Shown here: piece after piece, positions 33,389-49,626 of the stretch
Layout of the letters: every line of letters starts with the position of its first letter
How positions within the stretch are numbered: the first letter of the stretch is position 1
Assembly: GCA_040755995.1 (NCBI GenBank)
Contig: JBFMAF010000010.1
Coordinates: forward strand, 353,837-417,836
DNA: 64,000 nt
Direction: 5' to 3'
DNA from: Acidobacteriota bacterium
Lineage (GTDB): Bacteria; Acidobacteriota; CAIWXX01
The notes under the pieces: model-generated
Told to the model about the DNA's origin: nothing
The model's input: the letters and a program-made list of their open reading frames with translations, nothing else
Databases searched by the model: none
Program-made: the position numbers and the translations under genes

Positions 33389-33438
33389 GGGCGTGGAGGT
33401 CGGCCCGGCAGGCCAAGGAGCCGGCCCGCCCTCGGGAT

Positions 33439-34125: not shown

Positions 34126-34304
34126 GATCAGAGTATAGCCGACGGTAGGGCGAGCAGCAACGAGCGTTCGAGCACTCGACACCACGACACGGTGGGGTCG
34201 TGCGTGAGTGTGCCGCAGTCATGCCCGACCCGTCGCGCCGCTGAGGCCACACGGCGGGCCTTCGTTGGGACGATACGCTACCGTCTACCTCTCCGGGCGG
34301 GCGC

Positions 34305-34784
34305 TCACCGCGCGGCGGTGGATGAGACCTCGCTTGCTTCGCCGGCGTCGGTCGAGTACCTAAGGGTGGTGCTCTTGTACTTCAGGTCGATGCTCTCTTC
34401 CGCCTCCCCGTCCGTGTAATCCAGGCTGTATTCGACGATCTCGGCGTCCCGGATCAGGATCGACAGGTAGATGTGCTGGCTGCCCGCAAGATTCCTCTGG
34501 AAATCCACCTGGATCTCATCGAACTGCCTGCTCTGCGCCAGCGCATTGAACAGCGCCGGCGAGGACCTGGCGTCGACGCGCTTCTGGAAGGTGGCCTTGA
34601 GCGAGGTCTTCGACACTCCCGCGGGATTTCCCGCATCGAATCCGAAGTCGCTGGCCTCGATCCACTTCGGATGATTCGGGTCGCTGCTGGTGCCCTGGAT
34701 GCCCGGAATGCGAATGAGCACCGCTTCGTCCGCACACAGCGATGCCGAGAGCAAGACGATTGCAGCCGCCGTGATTGCCTTCAT
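34305..34784 (-). CDS. Hcp (T6SS tube)-fold protein with N-terminal signal peptide, orphan
   Basis: IPGIQGTSSDPNHPKWIE, KRVDARSSPALF, EESIDLKY; MKAITAAAIVLLSASLCA leader; GGAGG RBS. Confidence 0.75.
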   Translation of the reverse strand: MKAITAAAIVLLSASLCADEAVLIRIPGIQGTSSDPNHPKWIEASDFGFDAGNPAGVSKTSLKATFQKRVDARSSPALFNALAQSRQFDEIQVDFQRNLAGSQHIYLSILIRDAEIVEYSLDYTDGEAEESIDLKYKSTTLRYSTDAGEASEVSSTAAR

Positions 34785-34987
34785 TGCCCCACCTCCTCGT
34801 GTTCTGTCGGGGATTCTATGCCACCCGGAACCAATGTGAAACCTTTTCGCGATTCGCGTGCCGGTCACGGCATAGCCTTCATCGGGCCGGAAGGCCGCGC
34901 GGGCGATCTACTTCGGGTCGGGCACGTGTCGGTCCCGCAGCCCGTCGTTCGCACTCCGCAGCGTGCCGTCCGCATCGTGATCGTCCC

Positions 34988-35033
34988 GACGCATATTGCG
35001 ACAGCGACCTGCGACGGTGTTGCATGTTGCGTC
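34988..35033. promoter_or_regulatory. Two imperfect palindromes, candidate sigma54 enhancer (UAS) sites
   Basis: GACGCA-TAT-TGCGAC (34988-35002) and GTTGCA-TGT-TGCGTC (35019-35033), 31 bp apart. Confidence 0.55.
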
Positions 35034-35157
35034 CTCCTCTCGCGTGAGCGCCCGGGCCTGGGCGCTCTCTGCAAAGGCCTCTCGATTGCTGCTCACGGCA
35101 CGGCGAGGGCCTGCGCGTGGCAGAAGCAGGCGGACGCCGGCCGCGCCGACCCGCGCT

Positions 35158-35173
35158 TGGCACGTGTCGCGCA
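35158..35173 (+). promoter_or_regulatory. Putative sigma54 -24/-12 promoter
   Basis: TGGCACG-TGTC-GCGCA; GG and GC correctly spaced; -12 box deviates from TTGC. Confidence 0.55.
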
Positions 35174-35246
35174 TATCCGAAGCGAAGGCCAAAAGTGGCC
35201 AAAACGCCACAAGCGCAAAAACCGCCGAAGGCCTTGGGAGGACGAG

Positions 35247-35654
35247 CTGAAAAGAAGGAGCCCGGATGCAGTCTCGACCGGCCAGGCCGCGCGGTTCTGC
35301 TATGTCACGCCGGAGACGATCGTGAACTGGATACGGTCCAATCAGCTCAGAGCGCAGCGCACGGCGGGCGGGCAGTATCGAATCCGCACGGAGGAGTTGA
35401 GGGAGTTCATGACGGCCAAGGGAATGGCGACGGCTCTGCTGGACGCCGAGAGAGACGTGCGGCCGTATTGCTGGGAGTATCACTGCGAAGAAGCCGGGCG
35501 CTTCGGATCGGTTTGTGATTCATGTCTCGTTCACAGGTCCGGCACGCTGAACTGCTGGGAGCTCCACGGGCTTCTGCCCCTCACCTCGCGCCGCGTCGAT
35601 CGGTGTGCGAATTGCGACTATTTCCAACGATACGGATCGCACGGACATGAGTAG
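35247..35654 (+). CDS. Excisionase/MerR-type HTH regulator with Cys-rich two-CW C-terminal domain
   Basis: STGQAARFCYVTPETIVNWI...RTAGGQYRI; CWEYHC..CDSC..CWE..CANC; CTG start inferred from GGAGG. Confidence 0.78.
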   Translation: MKRRSPDAVSTGQAARFCYVTPETIVNWIRSNQLRAQRTAGGQYRIRTEELREFMTAKGMATALLDAERDVRPYCWEYHCEEAGRFGSVCDSCLVHRSGTLNCWELHGLLPLTSRRVDRCANCDYFQRYGSHGHE

Positions 35655-37167
35655 CCCGGCCGCGCGGTCACATCCACACCCCGCGTTGACGGATACGGAG
35701 GTGCAAGCGCTGGTGAAGGAGCACCTGTTCGAGCAGGCACCCATCATGATCGCGCTGCTGGACAGCGAGTGTCACGTAGTGGCGGGCAATGCGTCGTTCC
35801 GGAGGACGTTCCCGGAGTGGGCGCATCAGCGATGCTATCAGCTCTTCAAGAACAGCATGCGACGCTGCCCGAGCTGCGTGGCGTTGAAAACGCTCCAGGA
35901 TGCCAAGGTCAGAGTGCACGAGGAGATCATCGCGAAAGACGGCGTCGAGCCGACGCAGTACGTGGTGCGTGTTGCGAGGCTGGGCCCGTCGGATACCTCG
36001 CCGCCCGCACTGATAATGTGGATGGCATCCGAAGTCACCGAGGCCGTGAGCCTGCTGAAAGAGAACGAGCTGCTGTTCGAGCGGGTGCCGTGCTACGTGA
36101 CGGTGCTCGATCGCAATCTTCGGATCGTCCGGTCGAATCGGAAGATGAAGGAGACCTTTGGCGGCCGCAAGGGCGAGCACTGCTACCGCGTGTACAAGCG
36201 GCGGGACTCGCCCTGCCCCGGCTGCGCCACCCTGATGGTGTTTCGAGATGGAGCGGACCACACCGCAAGCCAGGTGGGGGTGAGCGCGACTGGCGAAGAG
36301 GTGCACTACATAGAGAGCTCCTCGGCGCTCGTGCGTGAAGGCGGCGGGCGGGTCAATCGGGTGATTCAGATGTCGACCGATGTCACCAACCTGCACCTGC
36401 TGGAGAAAGAGAAGATCGAAGCCGAGCGGATGGCCGCGGTCGGACAGACCGTGGCCGGGCTCGCCCACGGGATCAAGAACATACTCATGGGTGTCGAGGG
36501 CGGCGTATACGTTCTGCAGTCGGGACTGAGGCAGAACAATCCAGCCCGGCTCGACACCGGCGTCGAGATGCTCAGCCGGAATGTTGAAAAGATCTCGGCG
36601 CTCGTCAAGAACCTCCTGAGCTTTTCCAAGGGGACGGTGCCGCACGTCACGCTCACCGACCCGAACAAGGTGGCCCGCGAGATCCTGGAGCTCTACGGAC
36701 AGACCGCGCGAAAGGCCGGTATCGAGCTGCGGGCAGAACAGCAGGAGGGGGTTGAGCCGGCTGCGCTCGACGCCGAGGGAATCCACACGTGCCTGGCCAA
36801 CCTTGTCTCGAATGCGATCGATGCATGCCAGTGGAGCGAGAAGAAGGGATGCCGCGTGACCCTGAAGACCTCCGAAGAGAACGGCGTGCTCTGCTTCGAA
36901 GTGGCGGACGACGGCTGCGGCATGGACTACGATGTCAAGAAGAAGATCTTCACCACCTTCTTCACGACCAAGGGCTCAGGGGGCACAGGTCTGGGGCTGC
37001 TCCTCACGCGCAAGATCGTGCAGGAGCACGGCGGAAAGATACTCGTGGATTCAGAGCCCGAGCGCGGCACCACATTTCGGATACTCCTGCCGCGAAATCG
37101 TCTGCCCCGGCCGACGGGCGATTCGGGAATCGGCGGCGAAGGCGGATCGGCCGGAGCTGGTGCATAG
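35647..37167 (+). CDS. Cytoplasmic two-PAS sensor histidine kinase
   Basis: AGLAHGIKN H-box, NLVSNAIDA, DDGCGM, FFTTK, GTGLGL. Confidence 0.92.
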   Translation: MSSPAARSHPHPALTDTEVQALVKEHLFEQAPIMIALLDSECHVVAGNASFRRTFPEWAHQRCYQLFKNSMRRCPSCVALKTLQDAKVRVHEEIIAKDGVEPTQYVVRVARLGPSDTSPPALIMWMASEVTEAVSLLKENELLFERVPCYVTVLDRNLRIVRSNRKMKETFGGRKGEHCYRVYKRRDSPCPGCATLMVFRDGADHTASQVGVSATGEEVHYIESSSALVREGGGRVNRVIQMSTDVTNLHLLEKEKIEAERMAAVGQTVAGLAHGIKNILMGVEGGVYVLQSGLRQNNPARLDTGVEMLSRNVEKISALVKNLLSFSKGTVPHVTLTDPNKVAREILELYGQTARKAGIELRAEQQEGVEPAALDAEGIHTCLANLVSNAIDACQWSEKKGCRVTLKTSEENGVLCFEVADDGCGMDYDVKKKIFTTFFTTKGSGGTGLGLLLTRKIVQEHGGKILVDSEPERGTTFRILLPRNRLPRPTGDSGIGGEGGSAGAGA

Positions 37168-38562
37168 ATGGGCTCCACCCTCCTCGAGGACGAGACGAAG
37201 GCCCAGGCCATGCCACAGAACGCGACCGAGATCATCCTCGAAAGCATCTCGGACGGGGTGTTCACGGTCGATCACGATTGGCGTGTCACGTCGTTCAACA
37301 GGGCGGCGGAGGAGATCACCGGTGTGCTTCGGCAGGATGCGATCGGCAGGCGGTGCTGCGAGGTGTTCCGGTCGAACATGTGCGAGTCGCAGTGTGCGCT
37401 CCGCAGCACCCTCGACACGGGGGTCCCTGTCATCGACCGTTCCGGCTTCATCGTCGACGCGGATGGGTGCCGCATTCCCGTCAGCGTCTCGACCGCCGTG
37501 TTGCGCGACGATTCCGGTGCGGTGATCGGCGGTGTGGAGACGTTCAGAGATCTGAGTGTGGTCGAGGAGCTGCGGAAGAAGATCGAAGGACGCTACGAGC
37601 TCGGGGATATGGTCAGCCGCAGCCCACTGATGCTGAAGCTCTTCGACATGCTTCCTCAGGTGGCCTCAAGCGACAGCACAGTGCTGATCGAAGGGGAGAC
37701 GGGGACGGGCAAGGAACTGGTGGCGCGCGCACTCCACGGCCTCAGCACCCGGTCCGACCGGCCGTTCGTGGCAGTCAACTGCGGCGCCCTGCCGGACACT
37801 TTGCTCGAGTCCGAGCTCTTCGGGTACAAGGCGGGCGCGTTCACAGGTGCATCGAAGGACAAGCCGGGCCGCTTCGCTCTGGCCGAAGGCGGCACGATCT
37901 TCCTGGACGAAATCGGCGATATCAGCCCGGCGCTGCAGGTCCGCCTTCTCCGCGTGCTTCAGGAACGCGCCTACGAACCGCTCGGCGGCACGCAATCCGT
38001 CAAGGCAAACGTGCGCGTTCTCACCGCCACAAATCGCAACCTGGGCGAACTGCTGACATGCGGCTCATTCCGTCAGGATCTCTACTACCGCATCAACGTT
38101 ATGCGCCTGGAGCTCCCGCCCCTGCGCGCGCGGAGGGAGGACATCCCGATTCTGGTGGAGCATTTCGTCCGGAAGTACAACCGGCTGCAAGGGCGCGGTG
38201 TGTCAGGGGCTTCGCGGGCGACCATGGCCATATTGCTTGCACATGACTACCCCGGGAACATCCGTGAGCTCGAGAACATCATCGAACACGCATTCGTTCT
38301 CTGCCAGGAAGCCCCAATCGAGCCGTCCCACCTGCCGGACCATCTGACCGCCCGGCGTCGGTTGCCGAGCCTCCCGGGCAGCCTCGGAGGTACGCTGCAC
38401 GCCGTTGCATCCGAAACGATCCTGGAGGCGCTCAAGCGAAATCACTACAACCGGATCGCCGCCGCCCGGGAGCTGGGCATTCACAAGAGCACGCTCTTCC
38501 GGAAGATCAGGGCCCACGGCATCCAACTCCCGCCGCCGTCACGGCGGGGGAAGGAGAAATGA
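37168..38562 (+). CDS. PAS-domain sigma54-dependent enhancer-binding protein (Fis HTH)
   Basis: GETGTGKE, ESELFG, GAFTGA, FLDEIGD, PGNIREL, C-terminal HTH. Confidence 0.95.
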   Translation: MGSTLLEDETKAQAMPQNATEIILESISDGVFTVDHDWRVTSFNRAAEEITGVLRQDAIGRRCCEVFRSNMCESQCALRSTLDTGVPVIDRSGFIVDADGCRIPVSVSTAVLRDDSGAVIGGVETFRDLSVVEELRKKIEGRYELGDMVSRSPLMLKLFDMLPQVASSDSTVLIEGETGTGKELVARALHGLSTRSDRPFVAVNCGALPDTLLESELFGYKAGAFTGASKDKPGRFALAEGGTIFLDEIGDISPALQVRLLRVLQERAYEPLGGTQSVKANVRVLTATNRNLGELLTCGSFRQDLYYRINVMRLELPPLRARREDIPILVEHFVRKYNRLQGRGVSGASRATMAILLAHDYPGNIRELENIIEHAFVLCQEAPIEPSHLPDHLTARRRLPSLPGSLGGTLHAVASETILEALKRNHYNRIAAARELGIHKSTLFRKIRAHGIQLPPPSRRGKEK

Positions 38563-38990
38563 TCATGGACAGCACAAAGGGTCGCCGCAGGCCGAAGATT
38601 CTGGTAATCGACGACGAGCCGGATATCCTGTCGTTTCTCACCGTGCTGCTGGAGGATTCTCAATATGGGGTCGTCTCGGCAGACAACGCGGCCGACGGCC
38701 TGGCGTTGGCGAGGCGCGAAGTCCCCGATCTTGTCTGTCTCGACATCATGATGCCCGGCAGGTCCGGCATCAGTCTGTACCGGACGATCAAGCGGGATCA
38801 GCTCCTCGGCTCAATCCCCATTGTCATCATCAGTGCCGTGGGATCGGCGCAGAGTTTCACCGGCAGCGAGTTTCGCAAGACCGTCCAGGACGACTCCGTT
38901 CCCGAGCCGCAAGCTTTCTTCGAGAAGCCAATCAAGGCGGCTGAGCTTGTGGCCTACATTGATTCGTTCTTCGCGGGTCTGCAGAGGTAA
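38559..38990 (+). CDS. Single-domain response regulator
   Basis: LVIDDE, LDIMMP, EKP. Confidence 0.9.
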   Translation: MIMDSTKGRRRPKILVIDDEPDILSFLTVLLEDSQYGVVSADNAADGLALARREVPDLVCLDIMMPGRSGISLYRTIKRDQLLGSIPIVIISAVGSAQSFTGSEFRKTVQDDSVPEPQAFFEKPIKAAELVAYIDSFFAGLQR

Positions 38991-38994
38991 GCCG

Positions 38995-40512
38995 ATGGCA
39001 CTGCCGGCACTGAATGAGTGGTTCTACGAGAACCTCTTCAACAACGCGGCCTTCAGCGTCGCAGTCGTGGACCGGGATTACCGAATCGTGGCCGCCAACG
39101 CCGAGTTCGAACGGCACTACGGCCCATGGGAAAGCCACAAGTGCTTCGAGGTGTACAAGGGCCGGGCGGACCTCTGCCCCGGCTGCCAGGCCTCGCTGGC
39201 GTTTTCGGACGGCATGCAGCGGGTCTCAGAGGAGACAGGCGCGGATTCTGACGGCAATCCGAGGTTTTACCTGGTCAACTTCCTCCCGCAGAGATCTCCC
39301 GGAGGCGAGATCTCATACGTCATCGAGATATCCATCGATCTCACACAGAGAGTGATGATCGAGCGGGAGTACCGCCAGATATTCGATCACTCGCCATGCT
39401 ACATCACGGTGCTGGACCGGGCTTTCCGCGTCCTCAAGGCGAACCACCGCTTCCTGGAGAAGTTCGGTGGGAGGGAAGGCGCCTACTGCCACGAGTTGTT
39501 CAAGAAACAGAAGGGCCGCTGTGCGGACTGCCCTTCGATGAAGGTGTTCGACTCGGGCGAAGTCCATGAGTCACTCCAGACCGGCCTGGACAAGGATGGC
39601 CGCACCACGCACTACCTCCTCACCGCCGCTCCGTTGCTCCGAGATGCCGGCGGCCGGGTGCTGCGCGTGACCGAGATCGCGCTCGACATCTCGGAGATGC
39701 TGAGTCTCAAGGACCGGCTGAAGCAGGTGGAGCAGGAGAAGCTGGAGGCCGAGAGGCTGGCTGTGGTCGGCCAGACAGTGGCCGGGCTGGCGCACGGCAT
39801 CAAGAACGTAGTGATGGGCCTTGAGGGCGGCCTGTATGTTGTGCATTCGGGGCTGCGAAGAGACGACGGCCGGCTGGTCGAAAGCGGCTGGGAGATGCTC
39901 AACAACAACATCCAGCGCATGTCCGCCTTCGTGCGCGAGTTCCTCAACTTCGCGAAGGGCACGAGACCTGAGGTCCAGTGGGCCGAGCCCTTGTCGATTG
40001 CCGAGAGGGCGGTTGAGGAACATCGGAAAGCGGCCAAACAGGCGGGCATCACCATCGAGACCGATCTCCGGGGCCCAATCGACAAGGCTCCGATGGATGC
40101 AGAGGGGATTCAGATGTCGATCTCGCGGCTGATCTCGAACGCGATCGACGCGTGCCTGGCCAGCGACAGGAGATACCACAACATCCAGGTCCGGTGCCAC
40201 GAGGAAGACGGAACGATCTACTACACAGTGGAGGACAACGGGTGCGGGATGGACTACGAGGTGAAGAACAAGGTGTTCACGAGCTTCTTCACGACCAAGA
40301 GCTCCGGCCAGGGGACGGGCCTAGGCCTCCTCACAGTACGCAAGGTAGTCCATCAGCATGGAGGGCGCGTGAGCTTCAATTCGACCGCTGGAAAAGGATC
40401 CACGTTCACGCTCGCATTCCCGCGCGAAAGGCTTCCGCGCATTCCGGATGCCCGGGATGACGAGATGGTGCCGGGCCATGGTGGGGGTGCAGAGTCATGG
40501 GAGGAGAGATGA
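38995..40512 (+). CDS. Second two-PAS sensor histidine kinase (paralog of 35647-37167)
   Basis: EAERLAVVGQTVAGLAHGIKN, SNAIDAC, DNGCGMD, FFTTK, GTGLGL. Confidence 0.92.
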   Translation: MALPALNEWFYENLFNNAAFSVAVVDRDYRIVAANAEFERHYGPWESHKCFEVYKGRADLCPGCQASLAFSDGMQRVSEETGADSDGNPRFYLVNFLPQRSPGGEISYVIEISIDLTQRVMIEREYRQIFDHSPCYITVLDRAFRVLKANHRFLEKFGGREGAYCHELFKKQKGRCADCPSMKVFDSGEVHESLQTGLDKDGRTTHYLLTAAPLLRDAGGRVLRVTEIALDISEMLSLKDRLKQVEQEKLEAERLAVVGQTVAGLAHGIKNVVMGLEGGLYVVHSGLRRDDGRLVESGWEMLNNNIQRMSAFVREFLNFAKGTRPEVQWAEPLSIAERAVEEHRKAAKQAGITIETDLRGPIDKAPMDAEGIQMSISRLISNAIDACLASDRRYHNIQVRCHEEDGTIYYTVEDNGCGMDYEVKNKVFTSFFTTKSSGQGTGLGLLTVRKVVHQHGGRVSFNSTAGKGSTFTLAFPRERLPRIPDARDDEMVPGHGGGAESWEER

Positions 40513-41039
40513 GCGATGTCGGTGAGTTGACGGTGCTCGTCGTGGATGACGAGCCACAGGTGCAGATCTACTTGCAAACAGTGCTCGAGGACGCCGGCTT
40601 TCGCGTAGAGCTCGCGGCCAACGGCAAGCAGGCGCTGGACCGGATGCAGGAGAAGGAGCCGGACGTGATCTCGCTGGATCTGGTGATGCCCAAGATGTCG
40701 GGGCTGAAGTTCTACGAGTACATCCAGAAGAACCCGAAGCGCGCCGGAATTCCGGTGGTGGTCGTGACCGCTCACGGAAAGGACGAGATGGGTTCTGTCG
40801 AGCTGAAGAAGATGCTGGTGTACAAGGCGAAGGGGGCGCCGGTCCAGCTCCTCGAGAAACCGGTCAAGCCGGACGAATACGTCAATACGATAAGAAAAGC
40901 GCTGGGGCTCGAACCGCTGGACTTCGATCTCGATGAGAACTCGCAGGCGCTCAGGGTGCGCCTGTTCGAGAAGATCAAGAGCGCGGACAAGGAGACCTTG
41001 AAGGTGGCCTTGAGGGCTTTGGAAAAACGGGACTCGTAG
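40509..41039 (+). CDS. Response regulator receiver protein with C-terminal helical tail
   Basis: LVVDDE, ISLDLVMPK, LEKPVKP. Confidence 0.88.
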   Translation: MSDVGELTVLVVDDEPQVQIYLQTVLEDAGFRVELAANGKQALDRMQEKEPDVISLDLVMPKMSGLKFYEYIQKNPKRAGIPVVVVTAHGKDEMGSVELKKMLVYKAKGAPVQLLEKPVKPDEYVNTIRKALGLEPLDFDLDENSQALRVRLFEKIKSADKETLKVALRALEKRDS

Positions 41040-41082
41040 CCGTGCCGTCCGGCAGAACGACGTTTCACAGAGAGGGTTGAGA

Positions 41083-42339
41083 ATGGTTCAATTGGTCAAC
41101 AGGGACAGGCTGCACGAGTCAGAGGTCGACCTTCGCGCGGTCGACGAGGCTTACGAGGCGCGGCATGAGCCGCTGGTGAGCCCGGACGGCGAGAGAATCG
41201 CCTGGCCCGTCAAGAGCGGTGATGAGGGGTGGAGCCTGTGGGTGAACGGCCGGCGGTGGCCGGATGCCTTCGACGTGCTCTGGCACGCGATGTTCGGCCC
41301 GGACGGCAGACTCGCTGCGCTCGTGAAAAAGGATGAGCTCTGGACCGTCGCCGTGGAGGGTGTCCCGTGGGATGAGAAGTTCGATTTCGTATGGAACCCG
41401 GCGTTCAGCCCGGACGGATTGCACATCGCCGCCCAGGTGAAGAAGGACGGCAAGTACACCATGGCGGTGGATGGGAAGTCATGGGATGAAGGCTATGTCA
41501 GCACTCGGGAGTTCACCTTGGACAACGCCGGCAACGTTGCTGTCAGTGCCCAGGTCGAGCGGCTGAACGAGGGCGACGTCTTCAGATTCCTGGAGGGCAC
41601 CTGGGGACTGGCCGTCAATGCCGGTCTCTGGCCGGCGAAGTACCTGAACGTCTACGGCCCCGTGCTGAGCCCGGATGGCAAGCACGCAGCAGCACAGGTC
41701 CGGCTGGACATCTGCGACTATACGATCGCTGAGGACGGACAGCCATGGGACAGCCGGTTTGGCTGCATATGGGAGCCGGTCTACGATCCGAAAGAGGGTG
41801 CAATCGTTGCGCCGGTCAAAGTCCCCGGCGGGTGGACCTTGGTAAAGGGAGGCAATCCCTTCTGGAAAAGGAAATACGGGCAGATCTGGCGGCCGAAGTT
41901 CTCGCCCGACGGCAACCGAGTTGCGGCGGTCGCCTCGCCCGCCTTCGGCAAGTGGACCGTCGCGGTGGACGACACTCCGTGGACCTGCTTGTTCTCGGAT
42001 GCCGTCCTAGAGCCCCACTTCAGCGCTGACAGCAGGCGTATTGCCGCCATCGTGAAGGAAGAGAACCGGTGGACCATCGCAGTGGACGGGAAAGCCTGGC
42101 ACGAGACTTTCGACATGATCTGGGACCCGGTGTTCAACCCCGACGCGTCGCACGTGGCGGCGAAAGTCGAAAGGAATGGCTCCTATTCGATCGCAATCGA
42201 CGGCCAGATCTGGAAGGACAGCCTCGAACGTCTTTGGCCGCCTGTGTTCAGTCCCGACGGAGAGCAGATCTTGGTCAAGGGGATCGCGGGAGACAAATAC
42301 TTCCGCAAGGCTCTCCCTGTCAGCCAGATTCTCAGGTGA
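41083..42339 (+). CDS. tmcD: TmcD-like Trp-rich beta-propeller subunit of a transmembrane redox complex
   Basis: Repeats of W.P.FSPDG..AA.V....WT.AVDG..W; ~420 aa; adjacent to tmcC/tmcB homologs. Confidence 0.8.
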   Translation: MVQLVNRDRLHESEVDLRAVDEAYEARHEPLVSPDGERIAWPVKSGDEGWSLWVNGRRWPDAFDVLWHAMFGPDGRLAALVKKDELWTVAVEGVPWDEKFDFVWNPAFSPDGLHIAAQVKKDGKYTMAVDGKSWDEGYVSTREFTLDNAGNVAVSAQVERLNEGDVFRFLEGTWGLAVNAGLWPAKYLNVYGPVLSPDGKHAAAQVRLDICDYTIAEDGQPWDSRFGCIWEPVYDPKEGAIVAPVKVPGGWTLVKGGNPFWKRKYGQIWRPKFSPDGNRVAAVASPAFGKWTVAVDDTPWTCLFSDAVLEPHFSADSRRIAAIVKEENRWTIAVDGKAWHETFDMIWDPVFNPDASHVAAKVERNGSYSIAIDGQIWKDSLERLWPPVFSPDGEQILVKGIAGDKYFRKALPVSQILR

Positions 42340-42351
42340 GGTAGAAGGATT

Positions 42352-42996
42352 ATGTACGAGCTAGTCAAAGGCCCGCTGCTCTGGTTCGCCTTCGCGGTGT
42401 TCATCGGCGGGAGCATCTTCCGGCTTGTGCGAATGTTCACGCTGGCGAAGAGGGATCGCGTCATCTATCCGTATCTCAGCCCCAAGGCGGCGCTGCGTTC
42501 ACTGATCCACTGGGTCGTCCCCTTCGGCGGGCGCAACATGAGGCTGCGGACGGCCGTTACCGTAGTGGCCTTTCTATTCCACGTCTGCCTGGTCGTCCTG
42601 CCGATATTCCTTCTCGCTCACGTGCTGCTCTGGCACGATGCCTGGGGCATCCGTTGGTGGACACTCTCGGAGACGCTAGCCGACGTGATGACGGTCATCG
42701 TGATCTCGGGGGGCATCTTCTTTTTCATGCGCCGATTGGTTGCGCCCGAGGTGCGCAACGTCTCCTCTGCAGGCGACTTCGCCATCCTTGCGATCATCCT
42801 AGCACCGTATCTGACGGGCTTCCTGGCGCACCACCAGCTCCTCGCCTACAAGCCGATGCTGACGATCCACATTCTCTCCGGAGAGATCATGCTCATCGCA
42901 ATCCCGCTCACACGCTTGAACCACATGCTCTACTTCTTCTTCACACGCTCGTACATGGCCGGCGAGTTCGCTTTCCGCAGCGCGAGAGATTGGTAA
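42352..42996 (+). CDS. tmcC: TmcC/HmcE-like NarI-family membrane cytochrome b
   Basis: V.GPLLW, RSLIHWVVPF, FHVCL..LLAH, HILSGE, IPLTRLNHM. Confidence 0.82.
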   Translation: MYELVKGPLLWFAFAVFIGGSIFRLVRMFTLAKRDRVIYPYLSPKAALRSLIHWVVPFGGRNMRLRTAVTVVAFLFHVCLVVLPIFLLAHVLLWHDAWGIRWWTLSETLADVMTVIVISGGIFFFMRRLVAPEVRNVSSAGDFAILAIILAPYLTGFLAHHQLLAYKPMLTIHILSGEIMLIAIPLTRLNHMLYFFFTRSYMAGEFAFRSARDW

Positions 42997-43005
42997 GGGG
43001 GCGAG

Positions 43006-44313
43006 ATGTATCAGGAAAGGGCTGAGGTAGTAGATCCGGGCATCGACGAGCCGGTCAAGAAGCTCAGCACGGACCGGATCGAGAAGACGATACGGCGGGT
43101 GCTGGATAAGGAGTGCTCCGCACGCCTTCAGGTCTACTTGGAGACCTGCATGCACTGCGGCCTGTGCGCCAACGCATGCCACTACTACAACTCCCACGAC
43201 AGGGATCCCAAGTACTCCCCCGTGGGCAAGGTCAAGGACACGGTCTGGGAGATCGTGAAGCGAAAGGGCAAGGTCGATCCGGCCTTCATTCGCAAGATGG
43301 CCCGAATCGCCTTCACCGAATGCAACGTCTGCCGGCGCTGCAGCATGTACTGCCCGTTCGGCATCGATATGGCCTACCTGCTGCTCACCGTTCGGCGCAT
43401 CTGCCATCTGCTCGGAGTCGTCCCGCAGTTTCTGCAGGACACCGTCAACAGCCACGCGGTCACGATGAACCAGATGTGGGTGCAGCAGGACGAGTGGATC
43501 GACACGCTCCAGTGGCAGGAGGAGGACGCGTCGATGGAGGTCGAGGGGGCCAGGATACCGCTCGATGCCGAGGGCGCCGACATCATGTACTCCGTCATCG
43601 CCCCTGAACCGAAGATCCTCGCTCAGCTCCTCGCCAACATCGCGATGATCATGAAGGTCGCCGGCCTCAGTTGGACCATGCCCACAACAGACGGATGGGA
43701 CAACAGCAACATGGCCATGTACTCGGGCGACTTCGAGACGATGGCCCGAGTGGAACGGCTGCACTGGGAGACCGCGTTCCGGCTGAAGGTCAAGAAGGTC
43801 GTGATGGGTGAATGCGGGCACGCCTTCCGGGGCGCCGTCTACGACGGGCCGCGCTGGCTCTCGTGGAGACAGACGCCGATTCCGATGGTGCACGCGGTCG
43901 AGTTCTACTACGACCTGATCTCCAGCGGGCGGATCAGGATCAAGAAGAAGTACGAGAAGCCTGTCACCATTCAGGATCCGTGCAACATCGTTCGCGGTCG
44001 CGGGCTGGGAGACAAGCTTCGCTACATCATGAAGGCCACATGCTCCGACTTCCGCGACATTTTCCCCAACCACGAGCACAACTTCTGCTGCGCCGCCGGT
44101 GGCGGCGTCATCAACTGCGGACCTCCGTGGAAAGGGGTGCGAGTGCGCGGCAACCGCGTCAAGGCCGACCAGATCCGCGAGACCGGCGCCAAGTACATTG
44201 TCACGCCGTGCCACAACTGCCACAGTGGCATCGAAGACATCATCGGCTACTACAAGCTCGGGGTTCACACCAAGTTCTTCAGCGAGATCCTGGTGGAAGT
44301 GATGGAGAAATGA
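43006..44313 (+). CDS. tmcB: TmcB-like Fe-S/CCG-domain protein (HdrD/DsrK family)
   Basis: CMHCGLCANAC, CNVCRRCSMYCPFGID, ECGH, DPCN, CCAAGGG, PCHNC. Confidence 0.87.
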   Translation: MYQERAEVVDPGIDEPVKKLSTDRIEKTIRRVLDKECSARLQVYLETCMHCGLCANACHYYNSHDRDPKYSPVGKVKDTVWEIVKRKGKVDPAFIRKMARIAFTECNVCRRCSMYCPFGIDMAYLLLTVRRICHLLGVVPQFLQDTVNSHAVTMNQMWVQQDEWIDTLQWQEEDASMEVEGARIPLDAEGADIMYSVIAPEPKILAQLLANIAMIMKVAGLSWTMPTTDGWDNSNMAMYSGDFETMARVERLHWETAFRLKVKKVVMGECGHAFRGAVYDGPRWLSWRQTPIPMVHAVEFYYDLISSGRIRIKKKYEKPVTIQDPCNIVRGRGLGDKLRYIMKATCSDFRDIFPNHEHNFCCAAGGGVINCGPPWKGVRVRGNRVKADQIRETGAKYIVTPCHNCHSGIEDIIGYYKLGVHTKFFSEILVEVMEK

Positions 44314-44342
44314 CGGCATGCGAGCGGAAGGAGAAAGCTGAA

Positions 44343-45224
44343 ATGGACAGAAGGCGATTCATCCGGGCGGGGCTGTCGATTGGCGGAGCGGTTCTTGCTC
44401 AAGGCGGCATTGCCGAAGCCCGCGGGCCTGCCTCCGGCAAGGAATTCGCCGGGGTCCTCGTCGACACGACGCGATGCATCGGCTGCCGGAGATGCGAGGA
44501 GGCGTGTGCGAAGGCCAACGGTTTACCACCCCCGAACCTGGACGACACATCAGTGTTTCAGGGGACACGCACCATGGGCACCACGGCCTGGACGGTGGTC
44601 AACCGGTACGAAACATCCCGCGGCCCCGTGTATGTCAAGAGACAGTGCATGCACTGCAACCAGCCGTCATGCACGTCTGCATGCCTCGTGCGCGCAATGC
44701 TCAAGACGGAAGAGGGACCGGTCATCTGGCGCGAGAGCAAGTGCATGGGGTGCCGGTATTGCATGGTCTCATGCCCGTTCGACGTGCCGAAGTTCGAGTA
44801 CGACCGTGTCGTGCCGAAGATTCAGAAGTGCAACATGTGCTTCTCGCGTTTGAAGCAGGGCCTACGGCCTGCCTGTGTCGAGGCCTGCCCGATGGATGCG
44901 CTGATGTTCGGCACCAGGAAAGCGGCGCTCGAGAACGCTTACGCGAGGATTGTCTCGAAACCGGACCGCTATCACGAGGCGGTCTATGGTGAGAGCGAGG
45001 TGGGTGGGACGGCGTGGCTGTACCTGGCCGGCGTGCCGTTCGATGAGATCGGATTTCGCACCGACCTCGGGACGACTGCTTATCCGGAGTACACCAAGGG
45101 GTTCCAGTACCTGGTTCCCATGATCTATGTGCTCTGGCCCACCTTTCTGATGGGCATCTGCAGCATGACGCGGGGTGGGCAGAAGGAAGAGAGAGGCGTT
45201 GGGCAGGAGGCGAAGAAGCAATGA
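44343..45224 (+). CDS. hmcB: HmcB/HybA-like Tat-exported multi-[4Fe-4S] protein
   Basis: Tat motif DRRRFI; CIGCRRCEEAC, CMHCNQPSC, CMGCRYCMVSCP, CNMC..PACVEACP; C-terminal TM; alternative start 44310. Confidence 0.85.
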   Translation: MDRRRFIRAGLSIGGAVLAQGGIAEARGPASGKEFAGVLVDTTRCIGCRRCEEACAKANGLPPPNLDDTSVFQGTRTMGTTAWTVVNRYETSRGPVYVKRQCMHCNQPSCTSACLVRAMLKTEEGPVIWRESKCMGCRYCMVSCPFDVPKFEYDRVVPKIQKCNMCFSRLKQGLRPACVEACPMDALMFGTRKAALENAYARIVSKPDRYHEAVYGESEVGGTAWLYLAGVPFDEIGFRTDLGTTAYPEYTKGFQYLVPMIYVLWPTFLMGICSMTRGGQKEERGVGQEAKKQ

Positions 45225-46465
45225 GTGATGCCAGGGCCAACGGCGCGACGGCGGTTCCCTACGGCCCGGAGGGGAGGCGGTTCGCCTCGTTTTTCCTCTC
45301 GGAGCTGAAACCCAAGGGCAAGATACTGACGCCTTTCAACGTCATCAGCGCTCCGATCATCCTGCTCGGGTTGGTTCTCATTGTCATCCGGTTCGCCAAG
45401 GGACTTGCGACCGTGACGAACCTCTCGCAGGAATTCCCGTGGGGGCTCTGGATCGGTTTCGACGTGGTCACGGGCGTGGCGTTTGCAGGCGGAGCTTACG
45501 TGCTTTGCTTCGCCGTCTACATCGCGGGGGTGAAAATATATCACCCGATCATCCGAGCCACGGTCCTGAACGGCTTCCTGGCCTACGTCTTCTACTCCGG
45601 CGCTCTGCTTCTCGATCTCGGGCGCCCGTGGAACATCATCAACCCCGTGATCGGGAACGACTTCGGGGTCTCCTCGGTGCTCTTCCTCGTCGCATGGTCG
45701 TTCTTGCTGTACACCATCGCGGCATTCATCGAGTTCTCGCCTGCGGTGGCCGAGTGGCTGGGGTGGCGGCGGGTGCGACACCTGCTCACATCCATGACCG
45801 TGGCCACGGTGATCTGTGGGATCACCCTCTCCACACTCCACCAGGCCGGGCTTGGTGCGCTGTTCTTGACAGCCAAGGGGAAGATCCACCCGTTGTGGTA
45901 CACGGAGTTCATCCCCATCCTGTTCTTCGTTTCGAGCATACTGGCGGGTCTCAGCCTCGTGATCATTGAAGGCAGCATCAGCCACAGGGTCCTCCACAAC
46001 CGGATCACTCCGGAGCACAGCGCATCGCACGACGAGATCGTGATCGGATTGGGGAAGGGCGCTGCCATATCCATGTTCGTTTATCTTGCACTCCAGGGGC
46101 TCGTCCTCGTCCACGGAAGGCACTGGAACTTCATAGCTACTCCGATGGGGTACTGGTACCTCCTGGAGATGGTGGGGTTCGTCGCGATTCCAATGGCGCT
46201 TTACATAGAGGGGGTCAGGGGACGGCGGATGCGTCTGATCATGGTAGCCGCAGTGCTGACCTCAGTGGGTGTGATCCTGAATCGGATGAACATCTCAATC
46301 ATCGCATATCGTTGGGATGCCCCGAACCACTACTACCCATCATGGATGGAGGTGGCGATCACATTGGCCGTCATCCTCGGCGAGATCTGGGTTTTCAGGT
46401 GGGTGGTCAACCGCATGCCGGTACTGAGCGAGCCGCCGGAGTGGGCAAGAGCTGAGGCACATTGA
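45221..46465 (+). CDS. hmcC: HmcC/HybB-like NrfD/PsrC-family membrane protein
   Basis: TNLSQEFPWGLWIGFDV, LDLGRPW, LSTLHQ..LG.LFL, YYPSWME. Confidence 0.87.
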   Translation: MSDARANGATAVPYGPEGRRFASFFLSELKPKGKILTPFNVISAPIILLGLVLIVIRFAKGLATVTNLSQEFPWGLWIGFDVVTGVAFAGGAYVLCFAVYIAGVKIYHPIIRATVLNGFLAYVFYSGALLLDLGRPWNIINPVIGNDFGVSSVLFLVAWSFLLYTIAAFIEFSPAVAEWLGWRRVRHLLTSMTVATVICGITLSTLHQAGLGALFLTAKGKIHPLWYTEFIPILFFVSSILAGLSLVIIEGSISHRVLHNRITPEHSASHDEIVIGLGKGAAISMFVYLALQGLVLVHGRHWNFIATPMGYWYLLEMVGFVAIPMALYIEGVRGRRMRLIMVAAVLTSVGVILNRMNISIIAYRWDAPNHYYPSWMEVAITLAVILGEIWVFRWVVNRMPVLSEPPEWARAEAH

Positions 46466-46488
46466 TCAGAGAATCATGGGGGTATGCC

Positions 46489-46614
46489 GTGGAACAGTTT
46501 TCGTACATCGACATCTTCGCAACCAAGGGCATCGAGTACGTTGTCGTTATTGTGGTCCTGCTGGCATTCGCCGGGGTTTGGATCTATCTCAGCGGGAAGC
46601 GGAGGCAGTACTAA
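46489..46614 (+). CDS. hmcD: HmcD-like 41-aa single-TM peptide (not in ORF track)
   Basis: GTG start; MEQFSYIDIFATKGIEYVVVIVVLLAFAGVWIYLSGKRRQY; lies between hmcC and hmcA homologs. Confidence 0.75.
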   Translation: MEQFSYIDIFATKGIEYVVVIVVLLAFAGVWIYLSGKRRQY

Positions 46615-46707
46615 CGCCATGTGGGCTGAGGAGCGTTCTGAGTCCGCCTCAAGCAGACTGGCCCTGCGACAATCGCTGCCAACCTTTCGTCAGGGGTGTG
46701 AACCATC

Positions 46708-48294
46708 ATGATACAACTCGTCGCGCGACGTCAGAAGATCTGCTGCAGTCTCCTCACGTTTTTCGGGTTCATCGGTTGGCATCCCGTTGGACACGCAGCG
46801 CAGGAGGGGCAACCGTCACCGCGCGCCGACCTTGCTGTGATCGACGGCATGTCACGATTCGGGGATCTCGAGCGACCCGCCGTGACGTTCCCCCACGACC
46901 AGCACACCCGGGCGCTGGCGAAGGAGAAGACCGGCTGCGCTGCCTGTCATCTCACCAACGCCAAGGGGTATTTCACGCCCAGTTTCGATCATACCAGCGA
47001 GGGAGACCGGCAGGCCGTGATGGACCTGTACCACGACAGGTGCAACGGTTGCCACAACCAGCGCAGGAGCGCCGGGCTCTCCTGCGGGCCGGTGACCTGC
47101 GGGGAGTGCCATTTACGCGAGCCGAGGTGGACGTCGAGCCGCCGGCCGATGGCGCTCGATTACTCACTTCACTATCGCCACATCATGGCACAGGCGGAGA
47201 AGTGCGATAGGTGCCATCACGAGTACGACGAGACGAGTCGCAAGCTAATCTACGTGAAGGAGCAAGAGACGCCTTGCCGCGACTGCCATCGGGCCAAGGC
47301 CGAGGCGAACCGGCAGCCGATGGAGGTCGTCTCGCACTGGGACTGCATCGGATGTCATCAGAAGACTGTAGCTCAGGGCAAGGCGGCCGGGCCGGTAATG
47401 TGCGAAGGCTGCCACGATCCCGTCAAACAGGCCGCAATCAAGAAGGTGGACTACACGGCCTACGTGCTTCCCCGAAAACGCCCGGCAGCGGTCCTCGTGC
47501 GCGTTGCCGCAGGCGACACGGCCCGTGCCGAGCTGAACACGGTCCCCTTCGACCATCGGATTCACGAAGGGGTCACGACTACGTGCCGCACGTGCCACCA
47601 TGACCGCATGCAGGCGTGCAGCCAGTGCCACACACTCTGGGGCGATCCGAAAGCGGAAGGCGTGACTCTCGAGAAGGCGATGCACGACAAGAGGTCACCG
47701 CGAAGTTGCGTCGGCTGCCACGAACAGGAGGAATCGAAGTCGGCATGTGCAGGCTGCCATGCATTGACAGTCCCCAAGCGAATCCCCGTGGCAGGATGCC
47801 AGAGCTGCCACCGTGGACCGAGGCCGGATGAGCCTGGAATCTGGGAGCTGCCGGAGGCGTCAGTCAAGGCTCTGATGCCGCAGCCCGCCCTTGGCGAAGT
47901 GCCGTTCGACCAGGACATCCGAGACATGAAGATCGATGGCCTCGCGCACGACTACGATCCGGCCAAGTTCCCTCACCGCAAGATCGTAGAGAAACTCAGG
48001 AGCACGATCGAGGGGAGCAGGCTCGCCACCTTCTTCCACGCGCGTCACGAGGTGATGTGCCAGGGATGTCACCACAGCAGCCCCGCCGGCGTCAAGCCGC
48101 CTCTTTGCGGCAACTGCCACACGCACCCCTCAGACGAGAAGAACCTGGTGGTGCCCAAGTTGGAAGCCGCTTACCATCTCCAGTGTATCGGCTGCCACAA
48201 CAGAATGGGCATAGAACCCAACACAACTAAGTCCGCATCGAGATCCTGCGAGGGGTGCCACCCACGCAAGGGCGGCGTGCAGGGCCTGCGCTGA
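46708..48294 (+). CDS. hmcA: 16-heme high-molecular-weight cytochrome c (HmcA-like)
   Basis: 16 CxxCH motifs counted; c3-type F.H..H motifs; signal peptide. Confidence 0.9.
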
Positions 48295-48463
48295 TCGCGT
48301 TGGCTCGGCACCGAATGCGCAGCGACTCAGCCGCCACCTTGAACCTGGCCGGCAGCTGGGGGAGGATAGGCCGGTCGTTCAGAACCATGAGAAGGAGCGT
48401 ACAGTGAAGGAGAAAAGGACGCAGCCGCCGTCATCGGTCTCGGCGTGGTCACACAATCGAGAT

Positions 48464-48937
48464 ATGAGAATCGCGATCGGAGGAACGAGCTCGGCGCCGT
48501 CTTTTCCGTCGGTCATCCTCTGGCTGGTACTCCTCGCCACCCCGTGCGCGATCCTCGCAGACGACGCCCAGGTTGAGAGCCCGAGTGAGGAAGTGGAGAA
48601 GATCGACAGCACTGCGTGCGCGACGTGCCACGAGCCGGAGAAGGGGCAGACCGCGATCGATCAGCACCTCTCCCAATCCGTTCACGCAGGCCTGGTCAGT
48701 CTCGACTGCCATGCCGACAAGGACAGCGTTCCCCATGTGAAGGGTGCGGTCCCTTTCTTCGCGGGCTGCGAAGGCTGCCGGACGTGCCACGAGGAGGAGT
48801 CACGCCAGTACCAGAAGCACGGACGAGCCGCGATCGGGACGTGCGTGGACATGCCGCACTGCAGCAGCTGCCATGGAGCGCATGACATTCTGCCCTCGAC
48901 TTCCAGGGCCTCCAGAACTTACCCCGCAAACCTCCCG
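48464..48937 (+). pseudogene. N-terminal fragment of a multiheme cytochrome c
   Basis: Signal peptide, CATCH, degenerate [22 protein letters not shown]; homology breaks off after ANLP. Confidence 0.72.
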
Positions 48938-49300
48938 CTCATCGCCGGTGGTCACACCTTCGGCAAAGCCCACGGCGCCGGCCCGGCGACCCATGTGGGG
49001 CCTGAGCCCGAAGCGGCAAGCATCGAGGAGCAAGGCCTCGGTTGGAAGAGCAGCTTCGGCACCGGCAAAAGCGCTGGCACGATCACCAGCGGCCTGGAGG
49101 TCACCTGGACCACCACGCCGACGAAGTGGAGCGGCAACTTCTTCTGGAACCTGTTAGGCTACGAATGGGAACTGACGAAGAGCCCGGCCGGTGCGCACCA
49201 GTGGGTACCGAAGGGTGGCGCAGGCGCCGGCACGGTGCCGGATGCGCACGACCCGTCGAAGCGTCACGCGCCAGCCATGCTGACCACCGACCTCTCCCTG
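48938..49300 (+). pseudogene. katG: Internal fragment of catalase-peroxidase, fused in frame to the cytochrome fragment
   Basis: [52 protein letters not shown]. Confidence 0.88.
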
Positions 49301-49377
49301 GCGCATTTCGGATCAGCGCGGCTGCCGGCCTTAACCTCGCCTCGGTCGTGGTCATAAGGACTCTACGACCAACCACT

Positions 49378-49626
49378 TCAACATCCCGGACAGATACGCT
49401 GCCCTGATCGGAGACCGGGTACCGGAGATCGGGTGTCATTGCCCCAACCCGAGCACCCCTCGCCGATCTCGGTGCTGATGACGCCCGGTGCAAACAGCTC
49501 TGATCTTAGTCCCCGCGGTTTCTGGCCCAAGTAGGGGCCCGAGAGATTCGAGCTTGGTGGCGTTGCGGAATGGAGGCCCAGGAGGAAAGAAAGAACGAAT
49601 GCCGAAGACAACGCTCTTTTCATCAT
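49378..49626 (-). pseudogene. N-terminal stub of a secreted PD40/WD40-like beta-propeller protein
   Basis: Signal peptide then GPYLGQKP..ELFAPGVIST; truncated after ~65 aa; ATGA overlap with upstream gene. Confidence 0.65.

What the first reader, a model, noticed from the sequence alone, without database searches (positions are those of the whole stretch)
41083..48294. Hybrid Tmc/Hmc transmembrane redox complex (tmcD-C-B then hmcB-C-D-A) outside a classical sulfate-reducer context
Seen: seven contiguous co-oriented genes: Trp-rich propeller, NarI-type cytochrome b, HdrD/DsrK-type CCG protein, Tat Fe-S protein, NrfD-type membrane protein, 41-aa TM peptide and a cytochrome with exactly 16 CxxCH. 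Established: in Desulfovibrio, Hmc (hmcABCDEF) and Tmc (tmcABCD) are separate complexes, with TmcC/TmcB homologous to HmcE/HmcF. Here there is no tetraheme TmcA and no second E/F pair, hmcA comes last, and TmcD is included. Inference: one composite conduit from a periplasmic 16-heme cytochrome through a quinone-type NrfD module to a cytoplasmic disulfide-reductase-like subunit, in a host whose other genes look Acidobacteriota-like. It could serve sulfur respiration or syntrophic electron transfer.
Basis: partly seen in the sequence, partly recalled or inferred. Interest (0 to 1): 0.82.

Follow-up and report, generated by a model that had tools for sequence, protein, structure and literature searches.

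The report
Joined Tmc-Hmc electron-transfer operon
An acidobacterium with the full sulfate-reduction gene set has one operon that joins the inner half of the Tmc membrane complex to the outer half of the Hmc complex, a layout that recurs in many sulfate-reducer genomes and likely lets one 16-haem cytochrome feed electrons both to the quinone pool and to the sulfur carrier DsrC.

Summary
In detail: seven tightly packed genes, tmcD-C-B-hmcB-C-D-A. The B and C subunits are Tmc-type, not HmcF/E, and no HmcF was found in the genome. The host is an acidobacterium, but it carries dsrAB, dsrC, aprBA, qmoABC, sat and dsrMKJOP, so this is a sulfate-reducer context. The gene set is not rare. It follows tmcD in 20 of 80 related loci from several phyla, in 16 of 47 TmcD-bearing Desulfobacterota, and in small Nitrospirota genomes. 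Usually hmcA comes first; only L010 and L028 show the window's full order. 44 of 45 such genomes have dsrA and 1 of 45 has QrcD, against 24 of 27 other TmcD genomes; this contrast is not independent of phylogeny. HmcC keeps 7 of 9 QrcD proton-path residues. Best reading (0.5): a two-armed complex doing the jobs of Qrc and Tmc. Tetrahaem-TmcA operons arise more than once among hybrid-type TmcB, so the hybrid may be the older form. Nine searches found no paper naming it, but the key 2011 review was unavailable, and a Thermodesulfovibrio 'Hmc' looks like it. This scan noted the same layout five times before, on other DNA.

The parts
41083..42339 (+). tmcD: Trp-rich beta-propeller, no hydrophobic segment, likely cytoplasmic
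   Evidence: NF045725 483 bits > 440; PD40; deviates at 1 of 60 near-invariant columns in 72 homologues
42352..42996 (+). tmcC: NarI-type membrane cytochrome b, predicted two haems b
   Evidence: NF045723 277 > 240, HmcE 193 < 275; H77, H90, H173, H191 invariant in 34 hybrid sequences; 5 hydrophobic segments
43006..44313 (+). tmcB: HdrD/DsrK-like Fe-S protein with CCG domain and GECGH motif; predicted DsrC-trisulfide/disulfide reductase
   Evidence: NF045724 731.6 (cut-off 735), HmcF 381; motifs at 48, 106, 268, 361, 402; in the TmcB clade (SH-aLRT 98), apart from HmcF (100)
44310..45224 (+). hmcB: Tat-exported four-cluster Fe-S protein with a C-terminal membrane anchor
   Evidence: NF045715 342 (cut-off 420); RRRF at 14; 16 invariant Cys; hydrophobic segment at 268
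45221..46465 (+). hmcC: NrfD/HybB/QrcD-type membrane subunit with predicted quinone site and proton path
   Evidence: NF045714 409 (cut-off 550), PF03916; D81, Y100, Y122, D132, Y164, E171, E178, H207 align with the QrcD residues named in PMC6303296
46489..46614 (+). hmcD-like single-helix peptide, 41 aa
   Evidence: NF045712 E 1e-5, below cut-off; similar peptides in hybrid and canonical operons
46708..48294 (+). hmcA: 16-haem class III cytochrome c
   Evidence: 16 CxxCH; NF045713 498 > 400; 1gws E 1.5e-101 over residues 27-521
35265..41039 (+). Co-oriented regulatory block directly upstream: HTH protein (start uncertain), PAS histidine kinase 35647-37167, PAS sigma-54 activator 37168-38562, receiver 38559-38990, PAS histidine kinase 38995-40512, DVU0259-like receiver 40497-41039; likely controls the operon
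   Evidence: Pfam/NCBIfam; gaps -16 to 43 bases; close homologues flank the operon in L010, L013, L028 and L068

Best explanation
The seven genes encode Tmc-type cytoplasm-facing subunits and Hmc-type periplasm-facing subunits, which likely form one two-armed membrane complex in which the 16-haem HmcA would pass electrons either through HmcB/HmcC to menaquinone or through TmcC/TmcB to the sulfur carrier DsrC. The HmcB/HmcC arm would do the job of Qrc: quinone reduction with protons taken from the cytoplasm, hence energy-conserving. The TmcC/TmcB arm would do the job of Tmc, with HmcA in place of TmcA. Shown: gene content, subunit families, cofactor motifs, host pathway, distribution. Inferred: physical union, direction of flow, DsrC and menaquinone as partners. 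In this host the periplasmic donor is unknown, and the complex is likely accessory to DsrMKJOP.
For: (1) All cofactor ligands are intact: four invariant His in TmcC, GECGH plus CCG in TmcB, 16 Cys in HmcB, 16 CxxCH. (2) HmcC keeps 7 of 9 QrcD proton-path residues and the quinone-site Asp, while the host's DsrP lacks several of them (residue list from passages of PMC6303296, which also says HmcC is likely electrogenic). (3) In D. alaskensis, H2 oxidation needs both Qrc (to menaquinone) and Tmc (proposed to DsrC) (passages of PMC4215793); this operon holds an equivalent of each. (4) QrcD was found in 1 of 45 hybrid genomes, against 24 of 27 other TmcD genomes; within the Desulfobacterota sample 0 of 17. 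(5) No HmcF in 45 of 45 hybrid genomes, so TmcC/B is the operon's only cytoplasmic arm. (6) dsrA in 44 of 45; the host's DsrC ends in the two-Cys C-terminus. (7) The gene set survives reordering (hmcA first or last; hmcD before hmcB or after hmcC). (8) Thermodesulfovibrio N1 has anchor-less periplasmic hydrogenase and formate dehydrogenase, a class III cytochrome, and an 'Hmc' whose locus tags run CCG protein, 16-haem, gap, Fe-S, NrfD (passages of PMC5165239), the usual hybrid order.
Against: The Qrc contrast rests on few evolutionary events: only 2 independent pairs, one agreeing and one uninformative, p = 1. Three tmcA-type genomes (G658, G621, G692) lack both the Hmc arm at the tmc locus and QrcD, one hybrid genome (G075) has QrcD, and five genomes with a canonical Hmc also have QrcD. 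Most comparison genomes are MAGs of unstated completeness. In the window, QrcD N100 is Arg, E142 is Leu and E413 could not be aligned, and its HmcC departs at 9 of 64 conserved columns, more than any of 33 others. No stand-alone tetrahaem cytochrome c3 was found in the host, and its uptake-type hydrogenase has its own HybA/HybB anchor, so the classic donor is missing. A same-family genome has dsrA but no TmcD. In D. alaskensis, hmc mutants grew better, not worse, on H2.
Confidence: 0.5

Rival explanations
1. A second DsrMKJOP-like quinol:DsrC oxidoreductase. TmcC/B/HmcA/B/C map one to one on DsrM/K/J/O/P; menaquinol is the donor, and electrons run through the quinone pool or loop out through HmcC-HmcB-HmcA and back through TmcC to TmcB, perhaps driven by proton motive force. 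This covers the first reader's serial conduit.
For: Same module architecture as DsrMKJOP, which reduces DsrC-trisulfide with menadiol (passages of PMC10861901). It needs no periplasmic donor, which fits this host's lack of a stand-alone cytochrome c3.
Against: The host already has a full dsrMKJOP. HmcC resembles the quinone reductases QrcD/HybB rather than DsrP at the proton-path positions. It does not explain the scarcity of Qrc.
Confidence: 0.22
2. Two separate complexes under one promoter: TmcBCD working without a dedicated cytochrome, and HmcABCD as a stand-alone cytochrome:quinone oxidoreductase like Nhc or Qrc.
For: tmcDCB with no cytochrome gene behind it occurs in 8 of 47 TmcD genomes, as reported for Seep-SRB1a/1g (passages of PMC10553843). 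G773 has hmcA-B-C and tmcD-C-B at different loci. TmcB and HmcC similarities correlate only weakly (rho 0.26, 35 loci), and the NrfD subunit has been swapped for a HybB-like one in some operons.
Against: tmcB overlaps hmcB here by 4 bases. In most hybrids hmcA sits exactly where tmcA sits in tmcDCBA operons. TmcB and HmcA similarities correlate better (rho 0.61, 42 loci; no housekeeping-gene control was run).
Confidence: 0.15
3. An outward conduit: electrons from cytoplasmic thiols or quinol are exported through HmcA to periplasmic or outer-surface cytochromes, for syntrophy, metal reduction or keeping the periplasm reduced under oxygen.
For: Canonical Hmc is proposed to run outward (passages of PMC5109826) and matters for oxygen survival in D. 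alaskensis. The host encodes an MtrB-type porin next to a 10-haem cytochrome, a 60-haem protein, alternative complex III and a caa3-type oxidase.
Against: The cytoplasmic arm is Tmc-type, and Tmc is tied to inward flow from H2. The tie to dsrA is near-complete (44 of 45). Nothing links the operon to the porin-cytochrome loci.
Confidence: 0.13

Closest known systems
TmcABCD of Desulfovibrio vulgaris / D. alaskensis and Desulfobacterales (Pereira et al. 2006, not read; cited in PMC5109826, PMC4215793)
   Same: TmcD, TmcC and TmcB orthologues in the order D-C-B; GECGH motif; neighbouring DVU0259-like receivers.
   Different: No tetrahaem TmcA. A 16-haem HmcA and the HmcB/C/D quinone module are added; PMC4215793 states that Tmc has no NrfD-like subunit.
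HmcABCDEF of Desulfovibrio vulgaris (Rossi et al. 1993, not read; cited in PMC5109826)
   Same: HmcA (16 haems, matches 1gws over its length), HmcB-, HmcC- and HmcD-like subunits; same six-module plan.
   Different: The NarI/CCG pair is TmcC/TmcB, not HmcE/HmcF; TmcD is included; order D-C-B-B-C-D-A instead of A-B-C-D-E-F; HmcB, C and D fall below the curated cut-offs.
'Hmc complex' of Thermodesulfovibrio sp. N1, THER_1440-1444 (PMC5165239, passages)
   Same: CCG protein directly before the 16-haem cytochrome, then Fe-S and NrfD genes: the usual hybrid order, seen in 8 of 9 small Nitrospirota genomes fetched.
   Different: The paper calls it Hmc and mentions neither tmcD nor tmcC ('tmc' occurs 0 times). 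I could not open that genome, so its identity with the hybrid is inferred. hmcA is last in the window.
DsrMKJOP
   Same: NarI-type cytochrome b, CCG protein, periplasmic cytochrome c, Fe-S protein and NrfD subunit; GECGH-type motif.
   Different: 16-haem HmcA instead of trihaem DsrJ; extra TmcD and HmcD; the host's true dsrMKJOP lies on another contig.
QrcABCD
   Same: Fe-S plus NrfD module with most proton-path residues conserved.
   Different: No QrcB or pentahaem QrcA; HmcC scores 62 against the QrcD cut-off of 570. An analogue, not a member.

Membership tests
Tmc (TmcABCD) | TmcD, TmcC, TmcB orthologues | tested here: met
   483 > 440; 277 > 240; 731.6 just under 735 but inside the TmcB clade
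Tmc (TmcABCD) | Tetrahaem type II cytochrome c3 TmcA as periplasmic subunit | tested here: not met
   None in the operon; no stand-alone class III tetrahaem gene found in the genome
Tmc (TmcABCD) | No NrfD-like subunit (PMC4215793) | tested here: not met
   45221-46465 is NrfD/HmcC-like
Hmc (HmcABCDEF) | 16-haem HmcA | tested here: met
   16 CxxCH, 498 > 400, 1gws E 1.5e-101
Hmc (HmcABCDEF) | HmcB, HmcC, HmcD | tested here: inconclusive
   Best families are HmcB/C/D but all below cut-off (342/420, 409/550, 25/34); HmcC groups with canonical HmcC against HybB (SH-aLRT 100)
Hmc (HmcABCDEF) | HmcE and HmcF as cytoplasm-facing pair | tested here: not met
   HmcE 193 < 275, HmcF 381 < 750; HmcF is a separate clade; no HmcF in the genome
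Hmc / Tmc | Subunits co-purify as one transmembrane complex that moves electrons between periplasmic cytochromes and the cytoplasm | not testable with these tools
   Needs biochemistry
DsrMKJOP | DsrM, K, J, O, P orthologues | tested here: not met
   DsrK 203 < 400, DsrO 99 < 200; true dsrMKJOP over cut-off on contig C37
QrcABCD | QrcD orthologue with QrcA/B/C | tested here: not met
   QrcD 62 < 570; none in the genome
QrcCD-like electrogenic module (works-like test) | Proton-path residues D70, Y88, N100, Y110, Y150, E157, E164, H199, E413 and quinone-site D120 | tested here: inconclusive
   7 of 9 path residues and D120 kept; N100 is Arg, E413 not aligned, quinone-site E142 is Leu. D. vulgaris numbering was mapped onto three fetched QrcD by a constant offset of 8
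Dissimilatory sulfate reducer (host) | sat, aprBA, qmoABC, dsrAB, dsrC, dsrMKJOP | tested here: met
   qmoA/B identified as HdrA-like genes between aprA and qmoC/sat, qmoC below cut-off on a short call
Dissimilatory sulfate reducer (host) | dsrD as marker of the reductive direction | tested here: inconclusive
   An 82-aa ORF sits directly after dsrB but hit no DsrD model; that it looks like a divergent DsrD is recalled, not tested

The most novel reading that the evidence does not exclude
The TmcDCB-HmcABCD complex is the older and more widespread form of the family: a single Qrc-plus-Tmc machine used by sulfate reducers across many phyla that lack Qrc. The textbook Tmc arose from it more than once by swapping HmcA-D for a tetrahaem TmcA, and the textbook Hmc by swapping in HmcE/F and dropping TmcD.
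Probability: 0.35. Interest if true: 0.65.

Novelty: new variant of a known kind. Interest (0 to 1): 0.42.

Why it matters
How sulfate reducers without Qrc move periplasmic electrons to menaquinone and to DsrC is open, and the role and direction of Hmc are still unsettled. If this operon is a joined Qrc-like plus Tmc-like complex, it names the missing route for Nitrospirota, many Desulfobacterota and the newly found sulfate reducers in Acidobacteriota, Myxococcota and other phyla. It would also recast the two textbook complexes as derived forms. It is testable in cultured Thermodesulfovibrio if their 'Hmc' is this hybrid. The window itself is one more instance with a minority gene order, so it adds little beyond the family-level point.

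Tried and rejected
Complex prediction of TmcC against HmcB, HmcC and HmcD: no answer, score 0.00 in two runs, controls not folded; not used as evidence either way. RNA runs: no RNA holder listed, so expression is unchecked. First locus scan with the single TmcD sequence found nothing; the alignment scan worked. 16S rRNA not found in the assembly, so rpoB was used. No Rfam hit in the window. Promoter and terminator scan at chance level; no sigma-54 consensus match in 33000-49500. 'Split Hmc with hmcEF elsewhere' rejected: the three other NarI/CCG pairs are not HmcF. 'Recent transfer' not supported: GC3 of the genes lies at the 29th-96th percentile of the genome. 'Decaying operon' rejected: no stops, cofactor ligands intact, TmcB deviates at 0 of 141 conserved columns. 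'Canonical Hmc nested in hybrids' not shown: AU p 2.5e-5 with all 35 rows, but p 0.25 once three HybB-like rows were dropped. Phylogeny-aware test of the Qrc contrast had no power. The AU test of window TmcB with HmcF did not finish and was not repeated. The Pereira et al. 2011 review is not held.
Full report
Observation. The seven ORFs are present as described, on the + strand from 41083 to 48294, with gaps of 12, 9, -4, -4, 23 and 93 bases. NCBIfam names them TmcD (483, cut-off 440), TmcC (277/240; HmcE 193/275), TmcB (731.6/735; HmcF 381/750; DsrK 203/400), HmcB (342/420), HmcC (409/550), HmcD (25/34, E 1e-5) and HmcA (498/400). HmcA has exactly 16 CxxCH and matches solved HmcA 1gws over residues 27-521. 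Cofactor ligands are intact: four invariant His in TmcC, two ferredoxin motifs plus GECGH and a CCG domain in TmcB, a Tat motif and 16 invariant Cys in HmcB. Six co-oriented signalling genes lie directly upstream.

Host. The assembly is 7.7 Mb and 99.8% complete. An rpoB tree of 28 rows puts it with Thermoanaerobaculia and Holophagae, support 100/98 (one 232-aa row was dropped), so Acidobacteriota is right. It carries a dsrL-like gene, dsrAB, dsrN, dsrC, aprBA, qmoABC and sat on C34, and dsrMKJOP on C37. The dsrD position holds an ORF that no model recognised. It also has a hydrogenase-2-type enzyme with its own membrane anchor, an alternative complex III with an oxidase, and many multihaem cytochromes, but no stand-alone tetrahaem cytochrome c3 and no QrcD were found. 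This is the genetic profile of a sulfate reducer, though not a classical lineage; passages of PMC10591310 describe acidobacterial MAGs with this gene set.

Distribution. A scan with a TmcD alignment kept the best 80 of 586 confirmed stretches, so this set leans toward close relatives. In 20 of these 80 loci tmcD-C-B is joined to a large HmcA-like cytochrome: 15-16 haems in 19, and 11 haems with the Fe-S and NrfD genes upstream in L044. Their titles span Myxococcota, Acidobacteriota, Gemmatimonadota, Ignavibacteriota, Elusimicrobiota, Planctomycetota, Eisenbacteria, GN15 and Nitrospirota. Most Desulfobacterales loci have tmcD-C-B plus a four-haem tmcA; many others end at a contig edge. In an even sample of 301 Desulfobacterota, 47 had TmcD: 16 hybrid, 14 with tetrahaem tmcA, 8 with no cytochrome, 3 with tmcD alone, 5 cut by a contig end, 1 with an unrelated 17-haem cytochrome. 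Of 38 hmcA-like loci fetched from that sample (37 of the 44 matching genomes), 17 were hybrid, 10 canonical hmcABCDEF and 11 partial or other. In 151 Nitrospirota, 10 had TmcD; of the nine fetched beyond G076, eight showed tmcD-C-B-hmcA followed by hmcB-C, seven of them checked for and showing a 38-48 aa peptide in between, and one was cut. In the host's own phylum only the host had TmcD, 1 of 401 (the tally likely includes G025, flagged unpublished, as a non-match), although five acidobacterial loci turned up. The window's order, hmcA last, is seen in full in L010 and L028 and in part in L187. A same-family genome has dsrA but no TmcD, so the operon is accessory.

Co-occurrence. Of 45 hybrid genomes (host, 19, 8 Nitrospirota, 17 Desulfobacterota; L044 left out), 44 have dsrA (one in two pieces), none has HmcF (controls 3 of 3), and 1 has QrcD. 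QrcD was found in 24 of 27 other TmcD genomes, 0 of 6 with canonical Hmc only, and 0 of 2 unclassified (80 genomes). The Qrc idea came from earlier finding e1-9840596 and was tested here. On the TmcB tree it reduces to two independent pairs and has no statistical power, and three tmcA-type genomes also lack QrcD.

Trees (quick IQ-TREE, LG+G4). In 89 CCG proteins (20 of the 46 tmcA-type rows and 4 of the no-cytochrome rows kept), the window's protein lies in the TmcB clade (98), apart from HmcF (100). Hybrid TmcB are not one clade (AU p 0.0008, 83 rows), nor are tmcA-type TmcB (p 2.4e-5, 55 rows). TmcA-type operons thus appear at least twice among hybrid-type sequences, which fits a hybrid ancestor, but the base of the clade is unresolved and repeated gain of the Hmc arm is not excluded. 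The window's TmcB does not group with the three other acidobacterial TmcB (p 2.6e-8); its nearest rows are L010, L068 and L028, which suggests a separate lateral acquisition. Codon GC3 is typical of the genome, so it is not recent. Canonical HmcC sits among hybrid HmcC in the free tree, but this is not significant once three HybB-like rows are removed (p 0.25).

Mechanism. Shown: composition, motifs, pathway context. Established from passages read: Tmc is needed for H2 oxidation and is proposed to carry electrons from cytochrome c3 to DsrC, while Qrc carries them to menaquinone (PMC4215793); QrcD is electrogenic and HmcC shares most of its residues (PMC6303296); TmcB shares the catalytic Cys motif of DsrK (PMC10861901). 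Tested here: window HmcC keeps D81, Y100, Y122, Y164, E171, E178 and H207 (7 of 9 path residues) and D132, but not N100 or E142, and E413 could not be aligned. Inferred: HmcA takes the place of TmcA and serves two arms, HmcB/C to menaquinone and TmcC/B to DsrC (0.5). Rivals are a DsrMKJOP-like quinol:DsrC enzyme (0.22), two co-regulated complexes (0.15) and an outward conduit (0.13). The missing cytochrome c3 leaves donor and direction in this host open.

Literature. Nine full-text searches listed no title on a joined Tmc-Hmc operon. I saw term-matched passages only, no supplements, of PMC10553843, PMC5109826, PMC5165239, PMC6491731, PMC5539420, PMC8528874, PMC10861901, PMC10591310, PMC6303296, PMC4215793, PMC6129605 and PMC10504309; 'tmc' and 'hmc' occur 0 times in the main text of PMC8528874 and PMC10591310. 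Their supplements, such as the Tmc tables of PMC10553843, may bear on novelty. PMC5165239 describes a Thermodesulfovibrio 'Hmc' whose locus tags give the usual hybrid order; that it is the hybrid is my inference, and I did not establish the genus of the small Nitrospirota genomes. PMC5109826 reports separate tmc and hmc clusters side by side, as in L155, which is a different arrangement. Pereira et al. 2011, the most likely place for a prior mention, was not held; Rossi 1993 and Pereira 2006 are known to me only through citations. This scan's earlier notes record the same hybrid five times on other DNA; they are leads, not support.

Verdict. A real, intact operon and a widespread variant of the Tmc/Hmc family that I could not find named in print. 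It is a member of neither Tmc nor Hmc as defined, and likely works like Tmc plus Qrc. Novelty: new variant of a known kind. Interest 0.42.

Noticed in passing
window 48404-49357: ORF after hmcA: a multihaem cytochrome fragment (3 CxxCH) fused in frame to a catalase-peroxidase fragment whose DNA is 92% identical over 365 bases to a stretch on contig C33. Looks like a scrambled pseudogene or an assembly join.
   Followed up: partly
L055:6241-7107, L088:2096-2950, L168:11284-12150, L075:5406-6113: TmcB-like genes break at a TGA exactly at the catalytic Cys (xE-TGA-GH), a likely selenocysteine; the window has Cys. Lead from earlier finding e1-3111820; no SECIS check made.
   Followed up: partly
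G000 C10:103762-105867, C20:84017-86556, C20:91372-93840 (L090, L091): Three further NarI/CCG (DsrMK-like) pairs, near Rrf2 regulators and DVU0259-like receivers; one CCG protein carries a fused receiver domain. Homologues of the C20:84-86 kb pair lie next to the hybrid operon in L013, L028, L058, L062, L081, L178 and L179.
   Followed up: partly
G000 C32:52374-56795, C43:139826-142970, C35:59574-62543: A 60-CxxCH cytochrome, a 10-haem cytochrome next to an MtrB/PioB porin, and a 19-haem cytochrome with a cytochrome b561-like domain: possible extracellular electron transfer.
   Followed up: no
G000 C37:216545-228000 (L093): Alternative-complex-III-like cluster followed by cytochrome c oxidase subunits II and I, so this dsr-bearing acidobacterium may also respire oxygen.
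   Followed up: no
L008:3786-4034 (G000 C34): 82-aa ORF in the dsrD position, between dsrB and dsrN, not detected by PF08679; a DsrL-like gene precedes dsrA.
   Followed up: partly
L221 and L170 (G773): tmcD-C-B followed by an unrelated 678-aa, 17-haem cytochrome, with hmcA-B-C on another contig.
   Followed up: no
L014, L025, L058, L068, L178-L180: Hybrid operons whose NrfD subunit is replaced by a divergent or HybB-like one.
   Followed up: partly
L181, L184, L185, L188: hmcA-B-C preceded by only a 140-161 aa fragment of an HmcF-like gene, in three of the four with a NarI-type gene before it: another reduced variant.
   Followed up: no
G585, G819, G663, G697, G729, G789: Six dsrA-bearing Desulfobacterota genomes with canonical hmcABCDEF but neither TmcD nor QrcD found.
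   Followed up: partly
L023, L025, L014: Record titles disagree with rpoB: 'Chondromyces' falls with Thermoanaerobaculia; 'Enterobacterales' and 'Rickettsiales' fall among deltaproteobacterial lineages.
   Followed up: no
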